NCBI GenBank assembly: GCA_016860985.1
Contig: BOKM01000001.1
Coordinates: forward strand, 2,310 to 66,309
Source of the DNA: Patescibacteria group bacterium
GTDB taxonomy: Bacteria; Patescibacteriota; Dojkabacteria; GCA-002793355
Reading direction: 5' to 3'
Length of the DNA stretch: 64,000 nt
In this document: positions 34,657-59,376 of the stretch, in pieces
How positions within the stretch are numbered: the first letter of the stretch is position 1
How the letters are laid out: every line of letters begins with the position of its first letter
Translations under genes and position numbers: made by a program
The notes under the pieces: generated by a model
What the model was told of the DNA's origin: nothing
The model's database searches: none
The model's input: the letters and a program-made list of their open reading frames with translations, nothing else

Positions 34657-35036
34657 AAATTTCTTTAAAGAAACAGGTTCTTGAACAACTTAAGAAGACT
34701 CCGATAATTCAAGTAACCTGCGAAAAACTAGGAATAGCACGTGCTACCTTCTATCGATGGAAACAACGTGACCAGAAGTTCTCAACTTCGGTAGACAAGG
34801 CTTTACTTGAAGGCTCACTGCTGATTAACGATATGGCTGAGAGTCAACTCATTACGCAAATCAAGAATGCTAACATGACTGCAATTATCTTCTGGCTTAA
34901 GTACCACCATAGAGGATATACAAAAGAAGTTCTGGCTACTCTACCAAATCAGCCGACAAAAATTAAGGTGGAGATTATAAGAAGTAAATCTGATCTTGAG
35001 AATTCGGATAAGAAGGAAGTTCGTAAAGTAAGTTGA
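34653..35036 (+). CDS. terminase small subunit-like HTH protein
   Basis: GIARATFYRWKQRD (HTH) and AIIFWLKYHH. Paralog of 57476-57874. GTG start overlapping the upstream stop (GTGA). Confidence 0.5.
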   Translation: MKISLKKQVLEQLKKTPIIQVTCEKLGIARATFYRWKQRDQKFSTSVDKALLEGSLLINDMAESQLITQIKNANMTAIIFWLKYHHRGYTKEVLATLPNQPTKIKVEIIRSKSDLENSDKKEVRKVS

Positions 35037-35078
35037 TCTGCTAGATTTCTTGACGCGAAAAGAATAAAATTACATCAC

Positions 35079-38000: not shown

Positions 38001-38147
38001 GCACAGAAGTGGCTAAAGGATAGAAAAGGAACGAAGCTAACTTTTGACGATGTGTTACATTATCAACAGATTATTGTTGCCTTGACTAATACAGACAGAA
38101 TTATGCACGAGATTGATAGTTTGGCGATGACTTGGCCTCTAAAATAG
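35079..38147 (+). CDS. Type IIG restriction-modification enzyme (MmeI-like: N-terminal PD-(D/E)XK endonuclease + gamma-class N6-adenine methyltransferase + target-recognition domain)
   Basis: N-terminal GAPDFVLLKGKTPIGYIEAKD (PD...EAK), central LDPATGTGTF (motif I) and VVMGNPPYSGE (NPPY), about 400 aa of C-terminal target-recognition domain. 1022 aa. Confidence 0.75.
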   Translation: MSAIEKYIEEVIKTYKTGHAREHAYRPALETLIEEINPNINAVNDPKQQKVGAPDFVLLKGKTPIGYIEAKDIDVNLESEFKTKNQFNRYKSSLNNICFTNCLDFHFYVNGEAISRVSVGKLEAGKISILTENLPLLESLLVNFTTLKSISIRSPKELAFLMAEKAKMLKNVVYLSLKEGSEVKGQVEQQYEVFKQMLIHDLSLEQYADIYAQTVAYGMFAARFHDKSLDTFTRDEANNLLPKSNPFLRNFFQTIAGYNIDERIVWIVDDLAELFNHVNVRELLENFGKDTKRSDVIVHFYETFLSEYDAKMRKARGVYYTPEPVVDFIVRAVDDILKTEFGITDGLADTSKIDVEKEVQGLKKKQKVKEHRVQVLDPATGTGTFLDHVIKHIYNTKFKGQQGIWQGYVDEHLLPRLHGFEILMASYSMAHLKLDITLAETGYDSSKGQGKRLGVYLTNSLEEPEAHQKDLFSQWLTTESMEANEVKKEKPIMVVMGNPPYSGESSNKGKWIMDLMEDYKFEPGGQEKLNERNPKWINDDYVKFIRFAQHYIEKNGEGILAFINPHGFLDNPTFRGMRWKLLSVFDKIYTIDLHGNTKKKELTPDGSKDENVFDIMQGVSINLFVKKRDSRNKLANVYSKDLYGKRNIKYDFLSTNRIGDIKWNKLDPHNDMYFFVQKDFELLNEYEQGIKVNELFPVNNVGIVTSKDAILVSEDEEKLLKNVQEHYQINTDKNKVKRISYRPFDDRFVYYDTKLIERARYEVMQHLIKGANYGIIIPRQAITDNYSHVNITRYMTDNRYQYSNKGVTTEVPLYLYKDSTLLTATREPNLSRTLITDIATKLKLQFMNDHEHADSGKAGTFNPLDILDYIYAILHSPSYRERYKEFLKIDFPRIPFTSDQKLFWSLVEKGREIRRYHLMEHTNSSSLITQYPVSGENEVINPRYSDNKVWINDTQYFDDVPQIAWGFYIGGYQPAQKWLKDRKGTKLTFDDVLHYQQIIVALTNTDRIMHEIDSLAMTWPLK

Positions 38148-46215: not shown

Positions 46216-46644
46216 TTACAACTTTTTATAGTAAGCTAGTCCCAAAAAAATGAACCCAGCGAAAGACATAAAAGCGAAACCGATGATCTGGGTTATAACT
46301 CCAATATAATCAAACGATGAATCTATTAATGATGACGAATCGGCAATCCTGTAAGTTGAAAGAGAGGAGGATTGTGTAGTTGGAGTGTAAGTGGAGCTTG
46401 TATCTTGCCGTTTCTTAGTTCCTTCTACACCAGTATATGGATTGGTGTTTCCTTCTACACTCCAATTATTATTTACAATTCCGTCTGGGTCACTTCGATA
46501 ATATCCCTCGACTCGTGTTCCATCTTTCTTTGTATAGCCATTAACCCATACATCTGCATAAGCTGGAGAACTAGTAATGGCCACTGTTGCGAAAGAAAAG
46601 ACGATGAGAATTAGCACCAAAAGAAATTTGAATGCAGAAAACAT
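46216..46644 (-). CDS. hypothetical secreted/membrane protein (signal peptide, Ser/Thr-rich, C-terminal TM)
   Basis: N-terminal FKFLLVLILIVFSFATVAITSSPAYA and C-terminal hydrophobic segment. Confidence 0.4.
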   Translation of the reverse strand: MFSAFKFLLVLILIVFSFATVAITSSPAYADVWVNGYTKKDGTRVEGYYRSDPDGIVNNNWSVEGNTNPYTGVEGTKKRQDTSSTYTPTTQSSSLSTYRIADSSSLIDSSFDYIGVITQIIGFAFMSFAGFIFLGLAYYKKL

Positions 46645-46733: not shown

Positions 46734-47375
46734 ATGCCGAATCAAATTTCAAATACACTAAAAGGATACTGCCCACATTGTTTTACAAGTAGAAATTTCA
46801 ACCTTGACGAAAGGAGAGGGGCAATTATTAATTGTGCGAATTGCGAGAAGAACTTTACTGTACTCGATTCAGAAAAGATTATACTATCTGAAATAACTGA
46901 AGGTATGTGCCCACATTGTGGATCTGGTGTTCATTTTACATTACAACAACGTGCCGGAAGTCCCGTACTTTGTGTAAAATGCAAAAATGACTTTCTTCTT
47001 TCCGACATACACATTCTGCCCAAATATTCAGAGATAAACTATGTAAAAAAACTTGAAGAGTTGATGTCCCCAAATGGTAAAGTTGGAAGGAAAGAGTTTC
47101 TTTATAGCTACTTTGGAATCGCCTTAGGGAATTTCGTATTTATAACATTTCTGGTAGCGATTTTTGGTAATACTAATGAATACATGCTGTCGTCTATTCT
47201 AACTCTGATTGTCTTCCTCGCTTGGGGAATATCGGCGTGGGCTGTAATTTGTTTAGGAATTAGAAGATTGAGGGATATTAACGAACCTCCCGCAACAATT
47301 ATAGTCGCGTTTATTCCCATTCTTAATATTATTCTACTTTTGTGGCTTCTTTTAACTCCTTCAAAGAACAAATAG
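46734..47375 (+). CDS. zinc-ribbon + DUF805 family inner-membrane protein
   Basis: Two CxxC...CxxC ribbons at the N-terminus. C-terminal GRKEFLYSY...RRLRDINEPPA with 3 TM matches the DUF805 (YhaI-like) pattern. Confidence 0.55.
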   Translation: MPNQISNTLKGYCPHCFTSRNFNLDERRGAIINCANCEKNFTVLDSEKIILSEITEGMCPHCGSGVHFTLQQRAGSPVLCVKCKNDFLLSDIHILPKYSEINYVKKLEELMSPNGKVGRKEFLYSYFGIALGNFVFITFLVAIFGNTNEYMLSSILTLIVFLAWGISAWAVICLGIRRLRDINEPPATIIVAFIPILNIILLLWLLLTPSKNK

Positions 47376-47884: not shown

Positions 47885-48607
47885 TCAGTTATTCTTCTCA
47901 CTTGCAATCTCATTTAATGCTTCTCTCGTAAAATCATTAATATTATTAAGAATACTTTTCCTGACCAGATAATCAGTTAGATCATTAGTATCAGATTGAA
48001 ATTGACTCAATTGATACTTCATCTCTGCAGTGATTACCATTTTTACATACTCAAAAGTCGAATCGTTATTGATTGGATTATGCTTTTCTTTATTAAAGTA
48101 GAAATCATTACCATCGTAAGACCAGCCAGACCTTGCTTTAATCGCGTTGACCAGAGAATTAATCAATTCTGAATTTTGATAACGTGAATAAGTGCGAGCA
48201 CTGCGTAACAACATTTGAATCGAGTACTTCACATCTTCAGTAATAACCCATTGTGTTAAAGTTTCTTGCTTTCTTAGATTTTCTATATTCTCATTCGACC
48301 ACTCGCAGTTTTGAAGAATTAAAGCAGTGACGTGAATAGGGTTTGATGTTCTCTTCACGGTCTCAAATATTCTTTTTGCATCAACATCAGTAAGTTGGTT
48401 AAAAGGCTCACGATATCTTAACCAATTAACTATATAATTTAATGCTTCCTCGTGTGATTTACCTGTCTGAGTAAGAGTCTTGTAAGACGCCATAGACTGG
48501 GTATAGACTGACCATTTTAACGAAAAAGTGATTCGAGGAATAAGGTATATGGCCGTGATGAGTACTAATAGGAATATAAACCACCCCCACATGCAGTATT
48601 CAAGCAA
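47885..48607 (-). CDS. hypothetical protein with an N-terminal TM anchor
   Basis: 240-aa ORF. N-terminal WGWFIFLLVLITAIYLIP. Confidence 0.4.
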   Translation of the reverse strand: MLEYCMWGWFIFLLVLITAIYLIPRITFSLKWSVYTQSMASYKTLTQTGKSHEEALNYIVNWLRYREPFNQLTDVDAKRIFETVKRTSNPIHVTALILQNCEWSNENIENLRKQETLTQWVITEDVKYSIQMLLRSARTYSRYQNSELINSLVNAIKARSGWSYDGNDFYFNKEKHNPINNDSTFEYVKMVITAEMKYQLSQFQSDTNDLTDYLVRKSILNNINDFTREALNEIASEKNN

Positions 48608-48700
48608 TTTAATTATAACTTTTATACTTAATTAGTAATCGCGTCAATACAACGACGTTTTGGTTTATCAATAATGCAGCTGGGGGTATATAATTGAATC

Positions 48701-49423
48701 GTGTCATTGCAGAAAACAACGATAATAGATACCAAGTACAACTTCCAAGCAGAGACTGAACCTCTCGACGCTGACAAATACAGCAAAACACTTCAAGAAT
48801 ACCATCGATTACTCTGGAGCAAACCACTTCCAAGGGGAAAGATGTTTGAGCTATCAAAGATTGGTCAAAACAGGCTTTATCATAAATCTGAGTTAGGTGA
48901 AGTTACTCTATCAAGTGACAGAGCAATTGCGACTTTTTCCCGATGGAAGAAAATGAGCCGTATAGTTAATATGATTCCCAGAGAGAAGATTACGGAATTC
49001 GTTAATACAACCGAGACAATCGGAGCTATTATGATTTGGCCGAGTAATAGAATCGGACAAATGACAACAATCAATGGAGAACGTGGATTTAACAGAAAAA
49101 TTAGTGACCGTTTAGACTTAACTATTGAATGCATTAGGCGCTACTATTTGGGGATTCCAAGTCCGCTTTATGTAGTATTTAAAAGATACGCTAGCTTCTT
49201 TTCTTTGTTTGGTGACTTTCGCGGATACATTGATTTCTTTCTACTCCAAGATGCAGTTTCTACTGATTATTTGAATGTAAATACTTCGCAACCATTCGAT
49301 AATTTCGAATCACAACCACTACCAAAGAATGTTGATGAGTATATTGAATATATGGAGAATACAATTGAGTTTGTTAAAGCAAGAAATCGAAGGATTGAGC
49401 AATATTCGATAAATTTGCAATAA
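48701..49423 (+). CDS. hypothetical protein (first gene of a two-gene unknown operon)
   Basis: 240-aa ORF. The next gene starts 10 nt after its stop. Confidence 0.4.
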   Translation: MSLQKTTIIDTKYNFQAETEPLDADKYSKTLQEYHRLLWSKPLPRGKMFELSKIGQNRLYHKSELGEVTLSSDRAIATFSRWKKMSRIVNMIPREKITEFVNTTETIGAIMIWPSNRIGQMTTINGERGFNRKISDRLDLTIECIRRYYLGIPSPLYVVFKRYASFFSLFGDFRGYIDFFLLQDAVSTDYLNVNTSQPFDNFESQPLPKNVDEYIEYMENTIEFVKARNRRIEQYSINLQ

Positions 49424-49432
49424 TATATCTAC

Positions 49433-50194
49433 ATGAATTACTGGAACAAGCTATACGACGAAATCTTAGGTTACTATTTCTGGGAACCCCAGCATCTAGG
49501 AAGGCAGAAAGGTGACAAGAACATCTTTAAAATATCAGATTACAAGAAACTTATTGAGCACTCAAAAAAACTAGAAGTTTCTCTGAATCATCAACTTTCG
49601 CTTTTCTTTAGCCTTGCTCCGAATGAGTTTATTGAAAAATTTTTTAACCAATCGTTTTCCAGACAATTCAATGATTCATTTGTATTTGATATTGCCGAGA
49701 TAAATGATTTTGTTGTCGGATTAAAGGATTTTTCACAACCTGACTTCTGGTTTGTTGGAGAAAAGCATATCATTGCGGTCGAAATGAAACTGGAGGCTCA
49801 ATCATCGGTACTTCAGTTTTTAAAATATTTAACTCTAAACATTCTTTATCAAGAAAGCAAGAAGACCAACAAAGAGTTTCACTTGCTTTACTTAACAAGA
49901 AACGGTATTGACCAATTGTGGGACAAAAGAGATGTCAATTTTGAGAACCTATATGACAAGGTACATGATATCGATCTAAACGCATTCAAGGGGAAAGGTT
50001 CTATAAAGCTTGAGTCATACAGACAACAAGTACTATCTTTAGTGCAAAATACGGAACAACTTGTTGCACATACCAATTACAAATCGTTTGGCGATTTACT
50101 GAAGCAGGAATTAGATACTACTGAAAATGAGATATTTAAGAAACTTCTATTAGGGACTATTGATGAGTTAAAAGACCGGAACTTGATCAATTAG
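49433..50194 (+). CDS. hypothetical protein, possible PD-(D/E)XK fold
   Basis: DFWFVGEKHIIAVEMKLEA resembles a D...E-x-K nuclease core. Weak. Confidence 0.35.
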   Translation: MNYWNKLYDEILGYYFWEPQHLGRQKGDKNIFKISDYKKLIEHSKKLEVSLNHQLSLFFSLAPNEFIEKFFNQSFSRQFNDSFVFDIAEINDFVVGLKDFSQPDFWFVGEKHIIAVEMKLEAQSSVLQFLKYLTLNILYQESKKTNKEFHLLYLTRNGIDQLWDKRDVNFENLYDKVHDIDLNAFKGKGSIKLESYRQQVLSLVQNTEQLVAHTNYKSFGDLLKQELDTTENEIFKKLLLGTIDELKDRNLIN

Positions 50195-50292
50195 TTGTGA
50201 TAGCTCCAAATTTATTCTAAAAAACATTTAGTGAACAGACATTAGATTTAGGTGTTTTAATAAAACCAAGAATGTTGAATTTATACAACAAT

Positions 50293-51114
50293 TTACTTAT
50301 GTAAATTCCAAATAAGTATTGATGTATGGAGAACAAATATTGCCTCATCTTTTGTAGGTTGCCTTCCTTTGCCTTCAGTATGTTGACCACGAATATTGCT
50401 TACTTCTTTTAGTAAATTCGTTAGTAAATTCTTAGGTGTTACAATTGTATCTCCCTTATATGCGAGCACCACTGGATTTTCTTCAAAGGAATGAATAAAT
50501 TTCTTGAGTTGTGGTTTAGGATCATTCGGGAAATAGATTTTCCCTAAAAAGCTTTCGAGGAAGTCGCATACTCTTGTTACAGTTTTCTCATAATCAGGGG
50601 ATCGTGAATAGCAATATTTCCATGCATCACTTAACAAAGAACTACTTTCTAAGGCAGTTTTTGAAACTTCATTGACTATCTTATCCACCCTTTCAATTAA
50701 AATGTATGCACCTTTGTCATACTCAGAAGCGTCTTTCTCTGATTTAAATACATCATATGCTGATCCAGACACTTCAAGTATTTTCGATAAGTTTTGGGCA
50801 TCACGTTCATCAGCGAAATTCTGAAGGAGTAAGGTAAGAACGTTGGCAGTTCTGTCGGAATCTTCAAGAGCAAAACTTATAAAATCATGAAGCTTATTTG
50901 GTACTTTTTCCCTTAGGATGAGCTGGAAATTATTATGAACAGACGAAACAATATATCGATAATTGTAGTAACTATCAATTTCCACAACACCGTTTGTTGT
51001 ATTCAACACATCTGCAATCCAATCCGACAAAGGATTATGCATGAATACCGGAAAATCTCTAACTAATACACTATTGTCAAAGTCGTATTTTTTCCCAAAA
51101 GGTTTGAATTTCAT
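50293..51114 (-). CDS. hypothetical protein (third gene of a three-gene unknown operon)
   Basis: 273-aa ORF, 9 nt downstream of the zinc-ribbon gene. Confidence 0.4.
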   Translation of the reverse strand: MKFKPFGKKYDFDNSVLVRDFPVFMHNPLSDWIADVLNTTNGVVEIDSYYNYRYIVSSVHNNFQLILREKVPNKLHDFISFALEDSDRTANVLTLLLQNFADERDAQNLSKILEVSGSAYDVFKSEKDASEYDKGAYILIERVDKIVNEVSKTALESSSLLSDAWKYCYSRSPDYEKTVTRVCDFLESFLGKIYFPNDPKPQLKKFIHSFEENPVVLAYKGDTIVTPKNLLTNLLKEVSNIRGQHTEGKGRQPTKDEAIFVLHTSILIWNLHK

Positions 51115-51123
51115 ATCAAATAA

Positions 51124-51603
51124 TTAAGGAAAAAGTATTTTCTTGGCAGTTTCAGACAATACGTCGACCACTAAAGAGCGGATTGCACTGATTCCTGATT
51201 CGCCTATTTTTTTGAAATTCTGCTTAAGCTTTACTGCCGCGACATCTCCTGCTGGTGATGCATTAACAAGTGCGGGGACTGATGACTTTATTTCTGCTTT
51301 TTCGGTATCATTCAGCCCTTCTGACATGCTAATAATTTCCTCGACACCTTTAATTATATTAGATGTCCAAGGATACGCGCCACCACATTCATAACAGTAA
51401 AGTGGTAATGACATTGTCCCATTCGAGATTACGGAAGGAATAACATATGCTCCTCTAATATTTGCACTACACAAATTGCATTTTGTAATTGTTTGAGCAC
51501 CACACTTGGAACAATATTTTTTATTACGTTCAGGTGAACCACTAGCATTGGAATTAATAATATGTCCGTTCTGGCAAATCTGCGCTGTGTTGTAATACCC
51601 CAT
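51124..51603 (-). CDS. zinc-ribbon protein (DUF2321-like)
   Basis: CQNGH...C-x2-C...C-x2-C...CYECG cysteine pairs within the first 85 aa. The N-terminal YNTAQICQNGHIIN resembles DUF2321 as recalled. Confidence 0.4.
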   Translation of the reverse strand: MGYYNTAQICQNGHIINSNASGSPERNKKYCSKCGAQTITKCNLCSANIRGAYVIPSVISNGTMSLPLYCYECGGAYPWTSNIIKGVEEIISMSEGLNDTEKAEIKSSVPALVNASPAGDVAAVKLKQNFKKIGESGISAIRSLVVDVLSETAKKILFP

Positions 51604-51635
51604 TCTAAATATGAATTATAACTGAACCCTTGGTA

Positions 51636-53261
51636 TTATAACCTAATTTCCCATCCTTGTTCATCTCTGTAAGTGACTGGAATACTGAACTCTTTCTCAG
51701 GATACCTTTCTAAAAACCACTCATTGTCCTTCTTCAGAAATACCGTTAAGTAGGGCTTTCCATCTCTATCCTTCAACTCGATACCCTTTAATTCACCCAA
51801 TCTGATTAACTTCCTCATTGTGGAAGCAACAATTCCGTACCTATACCGAATATCATCACTGCTGAACCAGCGCTTCTTATACTTACAAAGCTTGGCTGAA
51901 ATAACGCCATTTTTGATATTCATCTGGCAAACATCACATCGCATACCGTATTTGTCATACCAAGTATCTCTTCCTCGGTGCCATTGGTCACAGATACTGC
52001 ACTTAAAGCTATTATCATCCTCTGATTCTAAAAAGTACCTCTCAGAAAATTCATTAAGCTTCCGCTTTCTCAAGAGCTCTTTACCGTGGAATTGCGCTAA
52101 GGTTATAGAAAGTCGCACAAGGTTTGAATAACCATACTTATCCTGCCTTATTGGATCGAGTTCCTTAATTTTTCGTTTCTTCTTACCCTCGAACAACTTC
52201 GTAATGTCTTCTTCTCGTTCGTAACCCTTAAATCTGCCAGATAAATAACCGAGACGGAACGAGATGCTATCTTCTTTCATCAATCGCCAATTTGTATTCT
52301 CCAAGAGGTCGTTTACTGTCGCTGTGAAGCATTGAATACTTCTCTCAGCTGTTCTATCGCTTCCCGTATCTTGAATAGAGAAGGGGACAATTACAAATTT
52401 TTCTATCACTACTCTACCAAAATTCAGTTTCCTATAGCCTTCTAGTAACAACTTCGAATTAAGTAACCGTTCCAATGCACTAATGTTTAGCTTCTTTACT
52501 TGAAAGGATTTCTCCCGTGCGGGATCACTGTACTTACTAAGCTCATAAGTATAGACCTCGTTGGCAAATTTCATCTGCTCGAGAACATCCACCGCTACTT
52601 TTCCTTCTTCTTCATTCAAGCAAAACTGCTCTCGAAATTGCTGAAGAAGTTCACCATCCTTTTTCCTCTCTGCTTCAAGTTCGCGTGTGAACTGTTTATG
52701 GTCATGAACACCCTTTTCTCGGTGCCCACACTTCGTGCACCTGTAGAAATAAGTAGTAACGTCGTCTGAAAATGTACACTCGCTTTTCACAATTGCTTTA
52801 CACTTCGAGCACCGTTCTAGCGTTGGGACAATTTCATCTCCATTTTCGTAAACATGCTTTACGATACGGCAGTCCTCGCAAATCAGAGTGAACGTTATTC
52901 TTGACTTCAAATAGTCGATTCCATCAAAATCACGGGACAATTCTTTGAATTTTCTGCCGCACTGCTCACATCTAATGTTCGGTGAAATTGCAGAATCATA
53001 CCGTTTCTGTATTTTCTTATCGTCTTCCACCCATTTTTTGATGGTTTCCTCCTTCTTTTGGTATTCGTGAGTCTTGAGAAAATACAGTTGTTGATGAATA
53101 ATCTTATCAATCTCATGTTTGTTCTTACCGTTCGGGTATTTCTTCTGCAACTTCTTGTCAGCGTACATCTTATCTCTGACATCGAGAGCCATCAGGCATA
53201 GTTTGATAGTGCTAACGTCGTAACGATCCAGATAAAACTGACGTTTGTGGAGATACTGCAT
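51636..53261 (-). CDS. 541-aa multi-zinc-ribbon protein of unknown function
   Basis: At least six CxxC pairs (CEQCGRKF, CEDCRIV, CSKCKAIV, CTKCGHRE, CSICDQW, CDVCQMN) and a basic, Lys/Arg-rich composition. Confidence 0.4.
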   Translation of the reverse strand: MQYLHKRQFYLDRYDVSTIKLCLMALDVRDKMYADKKLQKKYPNGKNKHEIDKIIHQQLYFLKTHEYQKKEETIKKWVEDDKKIQKRYDSAISPNIRCEQCGRKFKELSRDFDGIDYLKSRITFTLICEDCRIVKHVYENGDEIVPTLERCSKCKAIVKSECTFSDDVTTYFYRCTKCGHREKGVHDHKQFTRELEAERKKDGELLQQFREQFCLNEEEGKVAVDVLEQMKFANEVYTYELSKYSDPAREKSFQVKKLNISALERLLNSKLLLEGYRKLNFGRVVIEKFVIVPFSIQDTGSDRTAERSIQCFTATVNDLLENTNWRLMKEDSISFRLGYLSGRFKGYEREEDITKLFEGKKKRKIKELDPIRQDKYGYSNLVRLSITLAQFHGKELLRKRKLNEFSERYFLESEDDNSFKCSICDQWHRGRDTWYDKYGMRCDVCQMNIKNGVISAKLCKYKKRWFSSDDIRYRYGIVASTMRKLIRLGELKGIELKDRDGKPYLTVFLKKDNEWFLERYPEKEFSIPVTYRDEQGWEIRL

Positions 53262-53280
53262 TCGCAGAAAATAAAATTTA

Positions 53281-53967
53281 TTGGGGAGTTATTTGAGTGT
53301 ACAATATCCAATGCCAGATATTAATATTCAGCTTGAGAATTTGGAAAAGCTTAAACGACTACTTCTTGACAAGTATCTTGAAGCAGACAATAAGTGGAGA
53401 GATTTTTTAGATTTAATCGGTGGTGACGTCCTTTCTGATAAAAAGCTATTAATTCATAAACAACTAATCGAAGAACTCTCTGGAAGAAAATATATCTACG
53501 ACACGTTTAATAGAAATTCTTTTGCTATTGAAAACTTGGTGCATGCATTGAAGGATCTTTATGAAAATGATGAGAACTTAATAAATCAAAGCGGACAAGA
53601 GAGAGCGATTTCCTCAGCTCTCGCGCATCGTATGGGAATGTATTTTGAGAATACATACGATATCGATTGCGAATACAATAAGCATTTGAACGAACAAAAA
53701 TTAATTACTCAAGATGCGAAACGATCTGAACGTCCAGATATAATTGTTCACATGAGAGGAACAGATGCAAAAAACTTACTCGCCCTCGAAATAAAACAAA
53801 ATGAAATAAGTAAAGCTGATAAAGATAAACTTTCTGCGTTATCACTCGCTAACGGCCAGTATATATACAAATTCGCGATTGGCATTGAGATTAATGATAT
53901 TTTTGCACATATTTATATATATATTGATGGTGAATGCATAAATATTAGCAAGATTATTACTAGGTAG
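53281..53967 (+). CDS. hypothetical PD-(D/E)XK-like nuclease-fold protein
   Basis: DIDCEYN...RPDIIVH...LLALEIK follows the D/E...PD...(D/E)xK order. Confidence 0.4.
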   Translation: MGSYLSVQYPMPDINIQLENLEKLKRLLLDKYLEADNKWRDFLDLIGGDVLSDKKLLIHKQLIEELSGRKYIYDTFNRNSFAIENLVHALKDLYENDENLINQSGQERAISSALAHRMGMYFENTYDIDCEYNKHLNEQKLITQDAKRSERPDIIVHMRGTDAKNLLALEIKQNEISKADKDKLSALSLANGQYIYKFAIGIEINDIFAHIYIYIDGECINISKIITR

Positions 53968-55960
53968 TTTTGGATTCTCCGTTGAATACCGCGTTCAAAA
54001 ATGACTCAATTTCATCAGTCTGGAAGATTGCTGAAATATTTCTCGTCTTATTCTTGTTAACTATCTCACTAATTTCATATATTGAGTCATTGCTCAATTT
54101 TCTACTTTTTGGAGAAACCAATTTACTGTCGAGAGAAAGATCTTCGACTTCTCCATCAAGGATGCATATTCCATGCTTTCTAAGTGTTTCAAAGAATGCG
54201 ACTGCATTTTCTTTTACTTTAGGTAACTCGTCTATATTTGAAGCAAGATAGAACTCTCTTTCGTAACTGACCTTAAGCTGTGATCTTGTTCTTTGTATTT
54301 TTTTGAATATTTCTTCACCTTCAAGACCAAAAGTACATGATTGAGTAAAGAACTTGAGTCCAAGACTTTGTACCGACTCACTAGGTTTTGAACTATATTC
54401 AGCACATTTCTCGGTATCTTTATCTCTTAAATAATAATCAAAATCAGCTACCAAATAACATTCTAGGCCAAGCATTCTAACTAACTCAGCGTACTTGTGG
54501 ATATTATTCTTACCACCACAATTTAGAATTGTTGTATTATTCGCATTTAGTTGCATTGGGAACTTTTCGTCAGCAATCCATTTAATAATATGGCTATCCA
54601 GTCCCTCACAGAGAATAACTTTATCTGCGAAAAATATCTCATTATGATTATCGTCAAGAAGTAGAGACTGAAATTCCCTAATTTCAATAGGTGTTATAAC
54701 GGTTTTTTTGTTGATTCTTTTGACAAGAATAATATTCAATTCAGTTCCTGTAGTTTTTATGAACTCCGGACTATGTGTAGTCATAATTACCTGATTCTTT
54801 CCATTCTCAAGAAACTCATCGAACCTGTCGCTAATAACCCTTCGAGCATGTGGATGTAAATATAATTCTGGTTCTTCTACACATAACAAGGCACTTGCTT
54901 TTGAATTATATTGTCTTACATAATAACTAAACAGGCCAATTATAGTTGCACTTTGTATTCCAGCCCCCTTATCTGACAAGGGTGATTTAACACCGTCATC
55001 AATATAAATTTTAGAATCCTTATAGGTTTCTGTACTCTTATCTTCATTTAATTGAAACGATATGTCTGCACCAGGGAATGCAACATTTATAGTACTAGTC
55101 TGAATTTTTTCTCTTGCTACAGTAAATATTTTATCTGTTACTGACTTGACCTGACTATATGCAGTCTCTAACTCCTCGAAGTATGGGTGATCTTGAGTAA
55201 TATGTTTAAGTAGCTTGCCATACCAAGTATAACTTGTCGCACGCAATTGGATAACTGGATCCCTGAAACTACTAATTACAGCGCTCTGCAATAATTCTCC
55301 TCTTATAGGTGAGTTGAGAGCCAATATCCAACCTTTTTCAGGGCTTTCTCTATAAAGAAACCGCATATATTTTTCAACTCTGTGATTAATAACCTTTGCC
55401 CGAAAAACATACATAAACTCAAACTTGTTGTTCAGTTCATCTTCAAATTTGACAACATTACTGAGTTTCCCATCTACCCATCTCTTTCCTACGATATATC
55501 CACCTGCGGTTGGGTCGTCGACATCCTTGTCAAGAGTAAAAATCGAATCGAATTCGTCTGTAGTATAAGTATCAAAATGAAATCTTTTTTCAATATCCGC
55601 TTTTGGCCCTAGTTTAAAATCTGGTTTTGCAGAAAGAACTTTGTAAAATCCAGTAGTTTCGTTTATTGCAGCAAAATTAAGTTCTTCCTCGTTTTCTCTT
55701 TTTAGTATACAGGCTATTGTAAGTTCCGTTGCTGACTCTACAATGGCTTCATTCCTAAACGAGTGGAAATCTAACTCAGTTACATTGTCTGACTTGGCAT
55801 ATGTTGGGGACGATTCACCTAATAAAATATCAATCGCTTTTAGAATATTGCTTTTACCAGCATTGTTTCTTCCTACAATGACATTCTTGCCTTTACCAAA
55901 TGTTAGGTCTGCTTCATTGATAGATCTGAAGTTTTTAATAACTAGCCTTGATAAATACAT
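53960..55960 (-). CDS. OLD-family ATP-dependent endonuclease-like protein (ABC/AAA-type ATPase N-domain + Toprim-like C-domain)
   Basis: N-terminal LSRLVIKNFRSI...VIVGRNNAGKSNILKAI (Walker A). C-terminal region with DKVILCEGLDS (Toprim Glu) and LVADFDYYLRDKD (DxD). Confidence 0.6.
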   Translation of the reverse strand: MYLSRLVIKNFRSINEADLTFGKGKNVIVGRNNAGKSNILKAIDILLGESSPTYAKSDNVTELDFHSFRNEAIVESATELTIACILKRENEEELNFAAINETTGFYKVLSAKPDFKLGPKADIEKRFHFDTYTTDEFDSIFTLDKDVDDPTAGGYIVGKRWVDGKLSNVVKFEDELNNKFEFMYVFRAKVINHRVEKYMRFLYRESPEKGWILALNSPIRGELLQSAVISSFRDPVIQLRATSYTWYGKLLKHITQDHPYFEELETAYSQVKSVTDKIFTVAREKIQTSTINVAFPGADISFQLNEDKSTETYKDSKIYIDDGVKSPLSDKGAGIQSATIIGLFSYYVRQYNSKASALLCVEEPELYLHPHARRVISDRFDEFLENGKNQVIMTTHSPEFIKTTGTELNIILVKRINKKTVITPIEIREFQSLLLDDNHNEIFFADKVILCEGLDSHIIKWIADEKFPMQLNANNTTILNCGGKNNIHKYAELVRMLGLECYLVADFDYYLRDKDTEKCAEYSSKPSESVQSLGLKFFTQSCTFGLEGEEIFKKIQRTRSQLKVSYEREFYLASNIDELPKVKENAVAFFETLRKHGICILDGEVEDLSLDSKLVSPKSRKLSNDSIYEISEIVNKNKTRNISAIFQTDEIESFLNAVFNGESKTT

Positions 55961-56023
55961 GTTGTATTATATTCTTTTGTCTTTTTCTGTGCCAATCTTG
56001 GCGTAACTTTAGATATGTACAGG

Positions 56024-56041
56024 AGTTCTTGCGAAAGAACT
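56024..56041 (+). promoter_or_regulatory. perfect inverted repeat AGTTCTT-GCGA-AAGAACT (candidate operator) immediately upstream of the promoter of the second ParB-methyltransferase gene
   Basis: 7-bp arms with a 4-nt spacer. Located 15 nt upstream of the -35 hexamer. Confidence 0.4.
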
Positions 56042-56055
56042 TTCTTCCCATCATA

Positions 56056-56084
56056 TTGACACTTTCGATGTGTAGTGTTATTAT
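56056..56084 (+). promoter_or_regulatory. near-consensus sigma70 promoter (TTGACA - 17 nt - TATTAT)
   Basis: TTGACA at 56056-56061 and TATTAT at 56079-56084, 48 nt upstream of the ATG at 56133. Confidence 0.45.
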
Positions 56085-56132
56085 AAATCACCTAAACGAC
56101 GAGTAGGTAAATATAATTTATTCTATTCGTTT

Positions 56133-57479
56133 ATGGGAAACTCAATCCCCACATCTAACAAACTGGAAACGGTCTACGTTTCAATAGATCAGCTGAATCC
56201 AGCTGGCTACAATCCACGCAAGTGGGATAAAAAGGCTCTTGATGATCTCAGGAAGAGCATTAAGAAGTTTGGTCTAGTCGACCCTGCTATCGTAAATGGA
56301 GCCTCTAACAGAATGAACGTTGTTATTGGTGGTCATATGCGAATTGCAGCAGCCAAAGAGCTCGGTATTACTGAAATACCAGTAATTTACCTCAATATTC
56401 CCGATGTTGAAAAAGAAAAGGAACTGAATATTCGACTGAATAAGAATCATGGAGAATTCGACTTTAAGCTTCTTGCAAACTTTGCTGAGGAATTTCTAAC
56501 AGATATAGGCTTTAATTCTGAAGAACTAGACTCGATCTTTGACTGGGATGACGACACTCCCGAGGAATTTGATCTCAAGAAAGAATTAGAGAAACTTGAT
56601 ATACAAAACATCGAAACAAAGAAGGGAGACGTTTGGCAGTTAGGAGAGAATCGACTCATGTGTGGCGACTCTACCATTCAAGCTAACATGCTTGAACTTC
56701 TCTCTGGAGATAAGGCAGATATGGTAATGACTGACCCGCCTTACCGCTTGGACTACCTCCATGGTAAGAAAAAGAACGGTAAACCAACAGAAGGGTTCGG
56801 ATACAAACGAGATAGAAAATATCTTGAGACCGATACTCTACCTGATGATTTTACGGAACTCTGGATGAAAAACATCAAAGTGATTTCAAAAGCAGACTTC
56901 CATATTATTGTCTATGAAGCGTGGAAAAATTTGCGTGAAATTTGGGGCGAGCTCGAGAAGCACTGGAAGGTAAAGAATATGATTGTATGGCATCTGCCGA
57001 ACAGGAATCAAAGTTTTGCTGCGAAGTATAAATTTTTCAGCAAATATGACATTGCTATGGTCGGTTCTTCACACAGTGAAGAAAATCTAAACACTGAATC
57101 CGAGGAGCAATTACTCCAGGAAGAATACGAAACTGCACTGTACGCTATTTCAGGAAAACCGCATTGGGAAGGCTACCAAAAAGGTAAAAAGATACAGCCA
57201 ACAGACTTCATTGAGTTCAACGCTTCAGACGAGAAGCATTCAGGACAAGGAATAATCTTTGGTACAAAACCAATCGAGATACTTATTCCCTACATCAAAG
57301 TACTCACGAAACGAGGAGATTTGGTCGTAGAACCGTTCGGAGGAAGTGGATCGACTCTTATTGCCTGTCAGAAAATGAGGCGGAAATGTTACATCATGGA
57401 AAAGTCTCCTGTGTATGCCGAGGTTATCAAGAAGCGATGGGAAAAATTGACTGGATTAATAGGAGTAAAGATAACATGA
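56133..57479 (+). CDS. ParB-like nuclease domain fused to an N6/N4 DNA methyltransferase (second copy)
   Basis: Same architecture as 33328-34656 (LVDPAIVNG...GGHMRIAAAK, MTDPPY, EPFGGSGST). Confidence 0.85.
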   Translation: MGNSIPTSNKLETVYVSIDQLNPAGYNPRKWDKKALDDLRKSIKKFGLVDPAIVNGASNRMNVVIGGHMRIAAAKELGITEIPVIYLNIPDVEKEKELNIRLNKNHGEFDFKLLANFAEEFLTDIGFNSEELDSIFDWDDDTPEEFDLKKELEKLDIQNIETKKGDVWQLGENRLMCGDSTIQANMLELLSGDKADMVMTDPPYRLDYLHGKKKNGKPTEGFGYKRDRKYLETDTLPDDFTELWMKNIKVISKADFHIIVYEAWKNLREIWGELEKHWKVKNMIVWHLPNRNQSFAAKYKFFSKYDIAMVGSSHSEENLNTESEEQLLQEEYETALYAISGKPHWEGYQKGKKIQPTDFIEFNASDEKHSGQGIIFGTKPIEILIPYIKVLTKRGDLVVEPFGGSGSTLIACQKMRRKCYIMEKSPVYAEVIKKRWEKLTGLIGVKIT

Positions 57480-57874
57480 AAAAGGCCAACAAACCCGAGC
57501 TGATCGAACAGCTCAAAAAAACTCCGATAATACAAGTTGCTTGTGAAAAGGTAGGTGTAGCGAGAGCCACTTTCTACCGATGGCGAAAAGAAGATACTGA
57601 CTTTGCCGAAAAAGTTGAAGAAGCTGTAAACGCTGGATCACAACTCATTAACGATATGGCAGAAAGTGTTCTAATCACAGCAATAAAGAATGGAAACATT
57701 ACCGCCATAATCTTTTGGCTAAAGAATCATCACAAGATGTATTCCCCAAAAATGGAAGTAACAACAAAGAATGGCGATATTCCTTTAACTGACGAGCAAA
57801 AGGAACTCATACGAAAGTCACTCGACTTAGCCTTTGCAGATCAGTTAACAGATATCAAGCATGGAGAACAGTGA
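57476..57874 (+). CDS. terminase small subunit-like HTH protein (second copy)
   Basis: ATGA overlap with the upstream gene. GVARATFYRWRKED and AIIFWLKNHH, paralogous to 34653-35036. Confidence 0.5.
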   Translation: MKKANKPELIEQLKKTPIIQVACEKVGVARATFYRWRKEDTDFAEKVEEAVNAGSQLINDMAESVLITAIKNGNITAIIFWLKNHHKMYSPKMEVTTKNGDIPLTDEQKELIRKSLDLAFADQLTDIKHGEQ

Positions 57875-59312
57875 GATTTTTGAATATACGCCACAACTAC
57901 GGGATAAGATTGTAGAAAACCAGCCTCTCAGAAGAGCTCTTGCGAAAGAAAGCCACTTCTGGTTCTTTCATATCTACTTTCCTGATTATATTCATTTTTC
58001 ACCTGCGCTATTCCACAGAGAGCTCTTCTCCATAACAGAGGATAGCAGCATACAATTGGCTTCAATCGTTGCATTTCGAGGTAGTGCAAAATCAACAATA
58101 ATTACCATGTCTTCAGTAATCTGGTCTGTGATCGGCAAACTGCAGAAGAAATTCATCGTTATCATGTCGTTAACGCAAAGTCAGGCAAAACAACACTTAC
58201 GTAACGTTAAGATTGAATTTGAGTCGAATTTACTCCTTAGAAAAGACTTTGGTGAGATACAAGAAATTACTGATGAATGGGGATCGTTTTCACTATTCCT
58301 TCCAAAGTATAACGCTAAAATAATTGCCGTATCTACCGAACAAAGTATTCGAGGTATTCGTCATATGTCGTACCGCCCCGATTACATAATCGGTGACGAT
58401 ATTGAAGACCAGAACGCCGTAAAGACAAGAGACTCAAGAGATAACACCTACAACTGGTTCAAAGGTGAAATAATCTCATTAGGTGACGAGAATACCAAGA
58501 TTATCCTTATTGGGAACCTCCTACACGAAGACTCGCTTCTTATGCGAATAAAGAAAGAGATTCAGGAAGGTGCATTGTCAGGAATTGTTAGAGAATACCC
58601 TTTTATGGATGAACATGGAGTTCCTCTATGGAAAAGCAGATATCCCGATGAAGAATCAATTCAGAAAGTCAAAAGTAAGTTGGGTGATGAAAAGACTTGG
58701 CAACGTGAATTCATGTTAAAAATCATTCCCGATGCAGATCAGATTATAAAGAAGGAATGGATTCACTATTGGGATACTTTACCCTTAGACCGGAAAGACT
58801 TTCGATATTCAGTATTGTCAGTTGATCCAGCCATATCGGAACAAGGAGACTACACAGCAATGGTAATAATGCACGTTTTTGGACGCAGAGGTAGTCTAAA
58901 GATATACGTTGACGCACAGATTGTTAACAAACGCCTAAATTTTCCAGACTCAATAAATCAAATCAAGAATTTTGCAGTAAACAATAAGCTGAAGAAATAC
59001 CGACTAAGAATATGTGTTGAAAGCGTCGCATTTCAGAAATCAATAGTGCAAATTCTTGAGAAAGATAATTTCAAGGCTAATGCAATTTCAGTTGCTGGGA
59101 TGAGTAAGCGTGAACGACTGGCATCCGTGTCAATGCTCTTTTCGCAAGGTAAAATCTTCTTCCCAAACAAAGGTGCAGAACAGCTTATTCAACAAATACT
59201 CTACCTTGGAGTCGAAAAACACGATGACCTCTGTGATGCAATGACTTTAGGGCTAAATTACATACTGAGTCAAGATACAAATGAAGAAGACTTGTTGTTA
59301 AGTTGGGTGTAG
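57861..59312 (+). CDS. phage terminase large subunit-like protein
   Basis: N-terminal ATPase (deviant Walker A AFRGSAKST; Walker B YIIGDDIED) and a C-terminal RNase-H-like nuclease region (VLSVDPAISEQGDYTAMVIMHVF). 483 aa. Overlaps the small-subunit gene. Confidence 0.55.
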   Translation: MENSEIFEYTPQLRDKIVENQPLRRALAKESHFWFFHIYFPDYIHFSPALFHRELFSITEDSSIQLASIVAFRGSAKSTIITMSSVIWSVIGKLQKKFIVIMSLTQSQAKQHLRNVKIEFESNLLLRKDFGEIQEITDEWGSFSLFLPKYNAKIIAVSTEQSIRGIRHMSYRPDYIIGDDIEDQNAVKTRDSRDNTYNWFKGEIISLGDENTKIILIGNLLHEDSLLMRIKKEIQEGALSGIVREYPFMDEHGVPLWKSRYPDEESIQKVKSKLGDEKTWQREFMLKIIPDADQIIKKEWIHYWDTLPLDRKDFRYSVLSVDPAISEQGDYTAMVIMHVFGRRGSLKIYVDAQIVNKRLNFPDSINQIKNFAVNNKLKKYRLRICVESVAFQKSIVQILEKDNFKANAISVAGMSKRERLASVSMLFSQGKIFFPNKGAEQLIQQILYLGVEKHDDLCDAMTLGLNYILSQDTNEEDLLLSWV

Positions 59313-59376
59313 ATAAAAAGTGGACTTGTTGCAGGAAAACGAATAAAATATCATATTAAAAGGACATGCTATTTGT

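What the first reader, a model, noticed from the sequence alone, without database searches (positions are those of the whole stretch)
48701..53967. Five-kb block of tightly packed unknown genes (a 3-gene zinc-ribbon operon, a 2-gene operon and a PD-(D/E)XK-like singleton) next to an OLD-family nuclease
On the minus strand the genes 51636-53261 (541 aa, six or more CxxC zinc ribbons), 51124-51603 (159-aa zinc-ribbon, DUF2321-like) and 50293-51114 (273 aa) are separated by 32 and 9 nt. On the plus strand 48701-49423 and 49433-50194 (possible D..ExK core) are 10 nt apart. 53281-53967 has a PD-(D/E)XK-like triad and overlaps the 3' end of the OLD gene. None has a recognisable function. Their operonic organisation inside a defence island between element copy C and OLD makes them prime candidates for one or more previously undescribed systems.
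Basis: inference. Interest (0 to 1): 0.65.

Follow-up and report, generated by a model that had tools for sequence, protein, structure and literature searches.

The report
Patchwork of small defence genes
The six tightly packed genes are real, but they are a patchwork of independently swappable, mostly one-gene nuclease-type anti-virus modules in a defence island, not one or two new multi-gene systems; one 541-residue zinc-ribbon protein remains unexplained.

Summary
All six ORFs exist at the stated coordinates, and the block lies in a defence island. The reading as a 3-gene operon, a 2-gene operon and a singleton forming new systems is not supported.

- 48701-49423 is DUF6994, predicted to be HNH-like.
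- 49433-50194 belongs to a family of at least 313 clusters, absent from Pfam, with invariant PD-(D/E)XK and QxxxY nuclease motifs.
- 51124-51603 is DUF2321, a lone opposite-strand gene in temperate phages.
- 53281-53967 is a distant, partner-less homologue of PD-lambda-3 component A.
- 51636-53261 (541 aa) has three Cys4 zinc ribbons, a ferredoxin-like domain and a helix-turn-helix-like C-terminus. It has no informative structural relative.

Co-occurrence fails. The 541 family meets the HEPN family in 1 of 84 loci and DUF2321 in none, and the 253-aa gene occurs without DUF6994. A sister genome keeps the 541, DUF6994 and 253-aa genes but swaps DUF2321+HEPN and OLD+228 for other Abi-type genes. 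Defence function is inferred, not shown.

The parts
48701..49423 (+). DUF6994 protein (240 aa), a predicted HNH-like beta-beta-alpha-metal nuclease of type IV restriction flavour. Most likely a stand-alone gene.
   Evidence: Pfam PF22507, E 2.1e-85, full-length match. The Pfam paper PMC11701544 predicts an HNH-like fold with the catalytic His replaced and two invariant Asp. Homologues on plasmids and in a phage contig are solitary or have unrelated neighbours. A promoter-like site at 48665-48694 scores 10/12, but such sites are not enriched over shuffles.
49433..50194 (+). 253-aa member of an undescribed PD-(D/E)XK nuclease family with a RecB/Cas4-style QxxxY motif.
   Evidence: The word-indexed search found only 4 homologues. 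A full HMM search found 313 representative clusters at E<=0.001, nearly all about 250 aa. In 66 sequences E48, N52, D104, K119, Q128 and Y132 are invariant and E117 nearly so. Eight of 66 members weakly match Pfam PDDEXK_4, and a few weakly match PADLOC PDC-S26. In L016 the gene occurs without DUF6994, and homology to the window starts 19 nt upstream of its ATG.
50293..51114 (-). 273-aa protein: an N-terminal alpha+beta domain (weakly AbiJ-NTD4-like) plus a C-terminal HEPN-fold domain carrying an invariant R242-G-Q-H245..G248.G250-R251.P253 loop.
51124..51603 (-). DUF2321 zinc-ribbon protein (159 aa).
   Evidence: Pfam PF10083 at 1.5e-48 and phrog_16447 at 2.3e-45. It is a solitary, opposite-strand gene in the early regions of Staphylococcus and Lactobacillus temperate phages. 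A 111-aa form lies inside a type I restriction-modification operon together with a 273-family gene. A promoter-like site at 51663-51635 (10/12) lies just upstream, which is weak evidence.
51636..53261 (-). 541-aa protein of an undescribed family. Domain order: helical N-domain, two invariant Cys4 zinc ribbons, coiled coil, ferredoxin-like alpha/beta domain with an invariant NW.L...G...E...D signature, then a third zinc ribbon and a helix-turn-helix-like C-terminus.
53281..53967 (+). 228-aa PD-(D/E)XK protein, a distant homologue of PD-lambda-3 component A with an N-terminal extension of about 80 aa. No B (HEPN) partner is present.
   Evidence: PADLOC PD-Lambda-3_A at 1.1e-12, residues 84-204 against profile positions 18-145 of 159. 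A genuine PD-lambda-3 on an E. coli plasmid is A (159 aa) followed by B (267 aa, annotated TIGR02391). None of the window proteins scanned matched the B component. Solo relatives occur on Photobacterium and Xanthomonas plasmids, and a shorter annotated ORF occurs in Pukyongiella.
53960..55960 (-). OLD-family ATPase/TOPRIM nuclease. It lies outside the finding, but it is exchanged together with the 228-aa gene.
   Evidence: Pfam AAA_15 at 7e-40 plus OLD-like_TOPRIM at 4e-15; PADLOC Old at 5.9e-54. Window 53292-56094 has no counterpart in L001, where it is replaced by a 307-aa gene, DUF2188, a LexA-like gene and an AbiJ-type Abi_C gene.
50231..51633 (-). Exchangeable cassette holding DUF2321 and the HEPN gene.
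   Evidence: blastn of the window against L001: the flanks 48736-50230 and 51634-53291 are 84-88% identical, and this interval has no match. L001 carries PDC-S32 (AbiJ_NTD4) plus NERD in the same slot.

Best explanation
The 5.3-kb block is a mosaic of independently exchangeable defence-type cassettes. It sits in a hypervariable slot of a defence island in a small, low-GC genome, probably a Patescibacteria/CPR bacterium.

The units I infer are:

1. **DUF6994.** A stand-alone HNH-like nuclease, most likely acting on foreign or modified DNA.
2. **The 253-aa protein.** A stand-alone PD-(D/E)XK/QxxxY nuclease.
3. **DUF2321 plus the 273-aa NTD-HEPN protein.** A cassette whose effector is a latent HEPN RNase of the AbiJ/PrrC type. 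It would be held inactive until an infection cue, or the loss of a guarded partner, releases it to cut RNA and abort infection.
4. **The 541-aa protein.** A zinc-ribbon, helix-turn-helix-like protein with no catalytic domain. It is a conserved anchor that elsewhere trails restriction-modification, KAP-NTPase or helicase genes. It most likely binds nucleic acid as a sensor or regulator rather than acting as an effector.
5. **The 228-aa PD-lambda-3_A-like nuclease together with OLD.**

What is shown: gene existence, family and fold assignments, conserved motifs, gene neighbourhoods and cassette exchange. What is inferred: every biochemical activity, any anti-phage effect, and which genes act together.
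For: **Family and fold assignments.**
- DUF6994 at 2e-85 and DUF2321 at 1.5e-48.
- PD-Lambda-3_A at 1e-12.
- PD-(D/E)XK and QxxxY invariants in 66 sequences.

**Modularity.**
- blastn against the sister locus L001 shows three conserved blocks: the ParB-MTase/TerL-like/Type ISP block (90% identity), the 541-aa gene (88%) and DUF6994 plus the 253-aa gene (84%). They are separated by two non-homologous cassettes.
- DUF2321+HEPN is replaced by PDC-S32+NERD. The 228-aa gene+OLD is replaced by a LexA-like gene, AbiJ and others.
- L016 shares only the 253-aa gene.
- L037/38 keep ParB-MTase and the 541-aa gene, with other flanks.

**Lack of co-occurrence.**
- 541 family with the HEPN family: 1 of 84 loci. 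With DUF2321: 0 of 84.
- The 378 neighbours of 541-family genes fall into 243 clusters.

**Defence association.**
- The HEPN family lies inside type I and type III restriction-modification operons in at least 7 distinct loci.
- 541-family genes lie downstream of HsdR, Res-like helicases, KAP NTPases, DEAD helicases and ParB-MTases.
- DUF2321 is an opposite-strand solitary gene in temperate phages.
- The island holds OLD, a ProA/Hhe-like helicase and Type ISP enzymes.
- The PrrC paradigm, and at least 16 HEPN clades linked to restriction-modification, are documented in PMC3710099.
Against: - The three minus-strand genes are only 32 and 9 nt apart with no terminator-like site, so they may be co-transcribed and could cooperate here.
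- In both the window and L001 the 541-aa gene is followed directly by a protein with AbiJ-NTD4 similarity. The similarity is weak for the window's 273-aa protein and clear for L001's PDC-S32. This could mean a real, lineage-specific partnership.
- DUF2321 and the HEPN family share a locus in two independent contexts, the window and the L006-type operon.
- The HEPN loop is R-x2-H, not the canonical R-x4-6-H, so RNase activity is uncertain.
- The cassette comparison rests on a few close relatives.
- The ORF maps of the metagenomic loci are my own crude calls, and many contigs are short.
- No experiment links any of these families to phage resistance.
Confidence: 0.6

Rival explanations
1. The three minus-strand genes form one true three-component abortive-infection system. 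The 541-aa protein senses phage nucleic acid through its zinc ribbons and helix-turn-helix-like C-terminus. DUF2321 acts as an adaptor or antitoxin-like inhibitor. The HEPN protein is the RNase effector.
For: - Same strand, with gaps of 32 and 9 nt and no terminator-like site between the genes.
- In sister locus L001 the 86%-identical 540-aa gene is followed 8 nt later by PDC-S32, another AbiJ-NTD4-type protein.
- hhalign shows weak similarity between the 273 family and PDC-S32 (E 6.5e-4, probability 27%).
Against: - The HEPN family co-occurs with the 541 family in 1 of 84 loci. DUF2321 does so in 0 of 84.
- L037/38, whose 541-family protein is 67% identical, carry a 229-aa protein with no match to any window gene downstream. 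It looks like a membrane protein to me.
- The HEPN family functions in restriction-modification operons without the 541 family.
- The cassette boundary falls exactly between the 541-aa gene and DUF2321.
- A promoter-like site sits just upstream of DUF2321.
Confidence: 0.15
2. The 541-aa family is a defence-island transcription regulator or shared accessory subunit, analogous in role to BrxR/CapW-type regulators. It is recruited next to many different effectors. Here it would control or assist OLD upstream and/or the DUF2321-HEPN cassette downstream.
For: - The C-terminus holds a zinc ribbon and a helix-turn-helix-like module.
- No catalytic fold was found.
- The gene keeps its position while both flanking cassettes change.
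- In 18 of 74 loci with upstream sequence, a same-strand protein of at least 500 aa lies upstream. These include HsdR, Res-like helicases, KAP NTPases and DEAD helicases.
- ParB-MTase is nearby in 9 of 84 loci.
Against: - At 541 aa, with a strongly conserved non-DNA-binding core, it is large for a plain regulator.
- Nine of 34 family members lack the C-terminal module altogether.
- In 18 loci a small protein, an HTH_3 protein in L003, already lies within two genes of it, mostly upstream on the same strand, which suggests the 541-aa gene is itself regulated.
- No operator-like repeats were seen.
- The BrxR comparison comes from my memory and was not tested here.
Confidence: 0.2
3. The block is cargo of a prophage-like or satellite mobile element and serves element biology such as replication control, packaging or superinfection exclusion, rather than dedicated host defence.
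For: - Adjacent genes include a ParB-MTase, a small-terminase-like HTH gene, a TerL-like gene and a serine recombinase.
- DUF2321 belongs to a PHROG and occurs in temperate phages.
Against: - No structural phage genes are present. A Type ISP restriction enzyme follows the TerL-like gene.
- The 541, 273 and 253 families have no relatives in IMG/VR.
- There is no nucleotide match to 50,697 phage records.
Confidence: 0.1

Closest known systems
PrrC / restriction-modification-embedded HEPN RNases (PrrC-EcoprrI paradigm; HEPN clades in restriction-modification operons, Anantharaman et al. 2013, PMC3710099)
   Same: - The 273-aa protein has a C-terminal HEPN fold.
- Its relatives lie between HsdS and HsdR of type I operons, and between Mod and Res of type III operons. 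PrrC is likewise embedded in a type Ic hsdMSR neighbourhood.
- The inferred logic is the same: a latent RNase that backs up restriction.
   Different: - There is no ABC-ATPase N-domain.
- The motif is R-G-Q-H (R-x2-H), not R-x4-6-H.
- The copy in this window is not inside a restriction-modification operon. It follows DUF2321 and the 541-aa gene instead.
AbiJ / PADLOC candidate PDC-S32 (AbiJ_NTD4-containing proteins)
   Same: - The architecture is an N-terminal alpha+beta domain followed by a C-terminal HEPN-type domain.
- There are weak AbiJ_NTD4 matches: E 0.015 for this protein, and 3 of 44 family members match.
- PDC-S32 occupies the same slot in the sister genome.
   Different: - No BLASTP similarity to PDC-S32.
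- hhalign gives only 27% probability.
- No Abi_C match, and no PADLOC hit at E<=0.1.
PD-lambda-3 (Vassallo et al. 2022; two genes A+B; abortive infection)
   Same: - 53281-53967 matches the A component, and it carries its own PD..ExK motif. PD-lambda-3 is listed as carrying a PD-(D/E)XK domain.
- PD-lambda-3 acts by abortive infection (PMC13190303).
   Different: - The match is distant, 1e-12 against 2e-100 for a true A component.
- An extra N-terminal region of about 80 aa is present.
- No B (HEPN, annotated TIGR02391) gene is present. The adjacent gene is a convergent OLD.
Type IV restriction / HNH (beta-beta-alpha-metal) nucleases, as predicted for DUF6994
   Same: 48701-49423 is a full-length DUF6994. 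That family is predicted to share the minimal beta-beta-alpha-metal fold with type IV restriction enzymes.
   Different: The catalytic His is replaced in the family, and no activity has been shown. No partner gene is conserved.
RecB/Cas4-like PD-(D/E)XK nucleases (Pfam PDDEXK_4)
   Same: - The D, ExK and QxxxY motifs are invariant or nearly so in the 253-aa family.
- Eight of 66 members weakly match PDDEXK_4.
   Different: - No member reaches Pfam significance as a family. The window protein itself has no hit.
- No Cys cluster, no helicase partner and no solved relative.

Membership tests
PD-lambda-3 (two-gene system) | A component: PD-(D/E)XK protein matching the PD-Lambda-3_A profile | tested here: met
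   E 1.1e-12, residues 84-204 against profile positions 18-145 of 159. The match is distant: a genuine A component scores 2.3e-100.
PD-lambda-3 (two-gene system) | B component (HEPN, annotated TIGR02391) encoded immediately downstream | tested here: not met
   None of the ten window proteins scanned matched PD-Lambda-3_B. The downstream gene is a convergent OLD. A genuine locus has B 21 nt after A.
HEPN superfamily | Four-helix HEPN fold | tested here: met
HEPN superfamily | R-x4-6-H catalytic motif | tested here: inconclusive
   R242-G-Q-H245 (R-x2-H) is invariant in the loop between the last two helices. The spacing is non-canonical, and I could not superpose side chains.
HEPN superfamily | Metal-independent endoRNase activity | not testable with these tools
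   This needs biochemistry.
PrrC-type restriction-modification-guard RNase | Gene embedded in a restriction-modification operon | tested here: not met
   Met for the family: type I in L006-9/L021, L022, L023 and L031; type III in L010-13/L024, L025 and L029. Not met for this copy, whose neighbours are DUF2321 and the 541-aa gene.
PrrC-type restriction-modification-guard RNase | N-terminal ABC-ATPase regulatory domain | tested here: not met
   No ATPase domain in Pfam or NCBIfam. The model shows a small alpha+beta N-domain.
AbiJ | AbiJ HEPN domain (Pfam Abi_C) and an AbiJ-NTD | tested here: inconclusive
   No Abi_C hit. AbiJ_NTD4 scores E 0.015, below the cut-off, and 3 of 44 family members match weakly. 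hhalign against an Abi_C protein gives 0.2% probability.
PD-(D/E)XK nuclease superfamily (253-aa protein) | Conserved D ... (D/E)xK catalytic motif, here with QxxxY | tested here: met
   D104, K119, Q128 and Y132 are invariant and E117 is at least 90% conserved in 66 sequences of 20-41% identity.
PD-(D/E)XK nuclease superfamily (253-aa protein) | Restriction-endonuclease-like fold or significant profile match | tested here: inconclusive
   Only 8 of 66 members match PDDEXK_4, best E 1e-4. No PDB sequence relative.
DUF6994 (PF22507) | Full-length profile match above the gathering score | tested here: met
   286.5 bits against a cut-off of 27, covering positions 1-226 of 226.
DUF2321 (PF10083) | Full-length profile match above the gathering score | tested here: met
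   164.8 bits against a cut-off of 24, covering positions 1-156 of 157.
Multi-gene defence system (trio or pair as one unit) | Members co-occur as neighbours across unrelated genomes | tested here: not met
   541 family with HEPN in 1 of 84 loci and with DUF2321 in 0 of 84. The 253-aa gene occurs without DUF6994 in L016. DUF6994 is solitary elsewhere. DUF2321 occurs with HEPN in only one other distinct locus type.

The most novel reading that the evidence does not exclude
The 541-aa family is a new, widespread accessory component of defence operons. It has at least 216 metagenomic relatives, many apparently from candidate-phyla-radiation (CPR) lineages, and is absent from Pfam, PADLOC and the PDB. 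It would act as a nucleic-acid sensor or licensing factor that plugs into interchangeable effectors: OLD, HsdR or Res enzymes, KAP NTPases and HEPN RNases. In this locus it would couple OLD upstream to the DUF2321-HEPN cassette downstream.
Probability: 0.15. Interest if true: 0.65.

Novelty: new member of a known kind. Interest (0 to 1): 0.42.

Why it matters
The block shows how a bacterium with a contig of only about 1 Mb stacks many small nuclease and RNase modules in one hypervariable slot, and exchanges them gene by gene.

It yields three uncatalogued families that could be tested:
- a restriction-modification-embedded HEPN family with a non-canonical RGQH loop;
- a PD-(D/E)XK/QxxxY family of about 250 aa with hundreds of clusters;
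- a 541-aa zinc-ribbon family that trails restriction-modification and NTPase genes.

None of the three is in PADLOC 2.0 or Pfam, so current defence finders would miss them. The kinds of system involved are already well known: Abi-type HEPN RNases, solitary nucleases, and restriction back-up genes.

Tried and rejected
**Searches that found nothing.**
- Nucleotide search of 44.8-64 kb against phage records: no match.
- Exact-protein look-ups of the window's own 541-aa protein: not on record.
- Viral-contig scans with DUF6994 and with the 541, 273 and 253 families: no relatives.
- tblastn of the 253-aa and 273-aa proteins against plasmids: no match.
- PDB sequence searches for DUF6994, DUF2321, the 228-aa protein and the 253 family: nothing meaningful.
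- Rfam scan of 44-60 kb: no hit.
- Repeat search for shared cassette-boundary sequences: only short matches that look like chance.

**Searches with uninformative results.**
- Promoter and terminator scans found no more sites than shuffled sequence, so operon boundaries stay unresolved.
- The afdb50 fold library was unavailable.

**Ideas tested and rejected.**
- The 253-aa protein of L010 is related to the window's 253-aa protein. Rejected: BLASTP E 0.63.
- The gene after the 540-aa gene in L001 is an orthologue of the window's 273-aa protein. Rejected: BLASTP E 0.99.
- The region is a prophage. Rejected: a Type ISP enzyme follows the TerL-like gene, not structural genes.

Full report
**1. Observation**

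The six ORFs exist exactly as listed.
- On the minus strand, 51636-53261 (541 aa), 51124-51603 (159 aa) and 50293-51114 (273 aa) are separated by 32 and 9 nt.
- On the plus strand, 48701-49423 (240 aa, GTG start) and 49433-50194 (253 aa) are 9 nt apart.
- 53281-53967 (228 aa, TTG start) overlaps the 3' end of the convergent OLD gene (53960-55960) by 8 nt.
- The 541-aa protein has six CxxC motifs, at C98, C128, C151, C175, C421 and C442. These form three Cys4 ribbons, not six ribbons.
- The exact 228-aa translation is not in the protein collection, while four of the other five window proteins are (the OLD protein was not looked up). The true start may therefore be the ATG at 53311.

**2. Context**

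GC content is 34-40% throughout, and the block shows no marked compositional break from its surroundings. The block lies in a long defence island.
- Upstream are an AAA_16 ATPase; a ParB-N6/N4 methyltransferase, HTH and Type-ISP-like methylase module (33328-38147); a DUF2779/Cas4-like gene; a 1472-aa PDC-S37/ProA/Hhe-like helicase; and a large serine recombinase.
- Downstream are OLD, a second ParB-methyltransferase, a small-terminase-like HTH gene, a TerL-like gene and a full Type ISP enzyme that runs off the window.
- There is no nucleotide match to phage records, no tRNA and no Rfam hit.
- The identical proteins sit on a 1.05-Mb NCBI contig. The named relatives are mostly from Patescibacteria/CPR MAGs. 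A CPR origin is therefore likely but not proven.

**3. What each gene is**

*48701-49423.* This is a full-length DUF6994 (E 2e-85). Pfam's curators predict an HNH-like beta-beta-alpha-metal fold related to type IV restriction enzymes, with the catalytic His replaced and two invariant Asp (PMC11701544). On plasmids and in a phage contig it is solitary or has unrelated neighbours.

*49433-50194.* The word-indexed search found only four relatives.
- The exhaustive profile search found 313 representative clusters, nearly all about 250 aa.
- In 66 of them (20-41% identity) E48, N52, D104, K119, Q128 and Y132 are invariant and E117 nearly so. This is the PD-(D/E)XK signature with a RecB/Cas4-type QxxxY.
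- Eight of 66 weakly match PDDEXK_4, and a few weakly match PADLOC PDC-S26.
- No solved relative exists by sequence.

*50293-51114.* Forty-five homologues of 39-63% identity were found, 43 of which went into the alignment. They share an invariant R242-G-Q-H245..G248.G250-R251.P253 loop.
- The AF2 model (pLDDT 89.9) has an alpha+beta N-domain and four C-terminal helices.
- The motif spacing (R-x2-H) is non-canonical, so RNase activity is inferred only.
- Pfam gives only a sub-threshold AbiJ_NTD4 hit.

*51124-51603.* This is DUF2321 and phrog_16447. In Staphylococcus phages phiRS7 and phi879 and in Lactobacillus prophage Lj928 it is a lone gene on the strand opposite to the early genes, the usual layout of a lysogeny-expressed accessory gene.

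*51636-53261.* The word-indexed search found 34 family members, and the JGI metagenome scan found 216. None is in IMG/VR.
- The alignment shows a helical N-domain, two invariant zinc ribbons, a coiled coil and an alpha/beta domain with invariant N324-W325, L327, G338, E348 and D352. In 25 of 34 members a third ribbon and a helix-turn-helix-like tail follow.
- The model is confident (pLDDT 86.4).
- Foldseek returns nothing at E<=0.001, with ribosomal S24e best.
- No catalytic domain is detectable.

*53281-53967.* This protein matches PADLOC PD-Lambda-3_A at 1.1e-12 and carries PD...ExK.
- A genuine PD-lambda-3 on an E. coli plasmid is A (159 aa) plus B (267 aa, annotated TIGR02391).
- No B gene is present here.
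- Apparently solo relatives occur on Photobacterium, Xanthomonas and Pukyongiella plasmids.
- PD-lambda-3 acts by abortive infection (PMC13190303) and is listed as carrying a PD-(D/E)XK domain (PMC10952713).

**4. Are the operons systems?**

*Neighbourhoods of the 541 family.* I called ORFs in 84 loci carrying a 541-family gene.
- The 378 flanking genes fall into 243 clusters.
- The HEPN family appears once, 4.7 kb away. DUF2321 never appears.
- The commonest neighbour is a small protein of about 82 aa within two genes, mostly upstream, in 18 loci. It is an HTH_3 protein in L003.
- In 18 of 74 loci with upstream sequence, a same-strand protein of at least 500 aa lies upstream. Those I scanned are HsdR, Res-like or DEAD helicases, KAP NTPases, a C5 methylase, a DUF2779/Cas4-like protein, or have no Pfam match.
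- ParB-methyltransferase homologues are present in 9 of 84 loci.

*Neighbourhoods of the HEPN family.*
- It lies inside type I operons. The L006 type reads HsdM, Bro-N, DUF2321, HsdS, HEPN, DUF3644, HsdR. L022, L023 and L031 are also type I.
- It lies inside type III operons (Mod, HEPN, ..., Res) in L010-13/L024, L025 and L029.
- It also occurs alone.

*Cassette exchange.* blastn against a sister contig, L001, gives three conserved blocks:
- window 56095-62708, at 90% identity;
- 51634-53291, the 541-aa gene, at 88%;
- 48736-50230, DUF6994 plus the 253-aa gene, at 84%.

Two cassettes between them are non-homologous.
- 50231-51633 (DUF2321+HEPN) is replaced by PDC-S32 plus NERD.
- 53292-56094 (228 aa+OLD) is replaced by a 307-aa gene, DUF2188, a LexA-like gene and an AbiJ gene.

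L016 shares only the 253-aa gene, starting 19 nt before its ATG, and has no DUF6994. L037/38 keep ParB-methyltransferase and the 541-aa gene but have different flanks.

**5. Mechanism**

These are my best inferences. None has been tested.
- *HEPN protein.* It most likely works like the restriction-modification-linked HEPN RNases exemplified by PrrC. The RNase is held latent by its N-domain or a partner, and is released when infection perturbs that partner (PMC3710099). In this window the partner cannot be a restriction-modification enzyme encoded next door. DUF2321 is the only candidate, because the two are exchanged together and share one other locus type.
- *DUF6994, the 253-aa protein and the 228-aa protein.* I read these as stand-alone nucleases.
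- *The 541-aa protein.* It has nucleic-acid-binding-type modules and no catalytic fold. I favour a sensor or regulator role attached to whatever effector lies beside it.

**6. Rival explanations**

- A true three-gene system, 0.15.
- The 541-aa protein as a defence-operon regulator or adaptor, 0.2. This is compatible with the main model.
- Mobile-element cargo without a defence role, 0.1.

**7. Novelty and verdict**

The kinds of module are known: Abi-type HEPN RNases, solitary PD-(D/E)XK and HNH-like nucleases, and restriction back-up genes. The specific 273, 253 and 541 families are not in Pfam or PADLOC. They are new members of known kinds, plus one protein of unknown role. Its 'new multi-gene systems' interpretation does not. 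Interest is moderate.

Noticed in passing
window 56133-64000 and 33328-38147: A repeated module is present. It comprises a ParB_N+N6/N4 methyltransferase, an HTH_Tnp_1_2 (small-terminase-like) gene, a TerL-like gene (only in the 56-59 kb copy) and a Type ISP-type enzyme. No phage structural genes follow the TerL-like gene. The same module occurs in L001 and L037, and ParB-methyltransferase and TerL-like homologues occur in L072/74. Its function is unexplained.
   Followed up: partly
L041, L066, L067, L072, L077, L099, L116 and others (541-family loci): 541-family genes often sit at the 3' side of HsdR, type III Res-like helicases, KAP NTPases or DEAD helicases on the same strand. ParB-methyltransferase homologues lie nearby in 9 of 84 loci.
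   Followed up: partly
L030:7992-8825: In a Saccharibacteria MAG, a 273-family HEPN gene lies between what look like infA and rpsM in the ribosomal-protein cluster. The gene names come from my reading of the translations.
   Followed up: no
window 40301-44719: A 1472-aa helicase with CxxC pairs at its N-terminus and a weak C-terminal DUF559 (NF007294) match. It hits PADLOC PDC-S37 at 2e-130 and NCBIfam ProA at 2.5e-123, below the equivalog cut-offs.
   Followed up: no
window 47885-48607 (-): A 240-aa ORF directly beside the block has no hit in Pfam, PHROGs, NCBIfam or PADLOC.
   Followed up: no
window 46734-47375 (+) and 46216-46644 (-): One gene encodes a DUF805 protein with CxxC pairs at its N-terminus, probably a membrane protein. 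The other encodes a small protein matching phrog_29674. Both lie between the serine recombinase and the block.
   Followed up: no
window 48676-53306 (25 nt upstream of each of the six genes): No obvious Shine-Dalgarno sequence lies upstream of any of the six genes. There is no tRNA in the whole 64 kb.
   Followed up: no
L006:4593-4928 and L006:6840-7823: The type I operon that holds a 273-family gene also carries a truncated DUF2321 (111 aa), a Bro-N protein and a DUF3644/PDC-S19 protein. That makes four accessory genes inside a single hsdMSR operon.
   Followed up: partly
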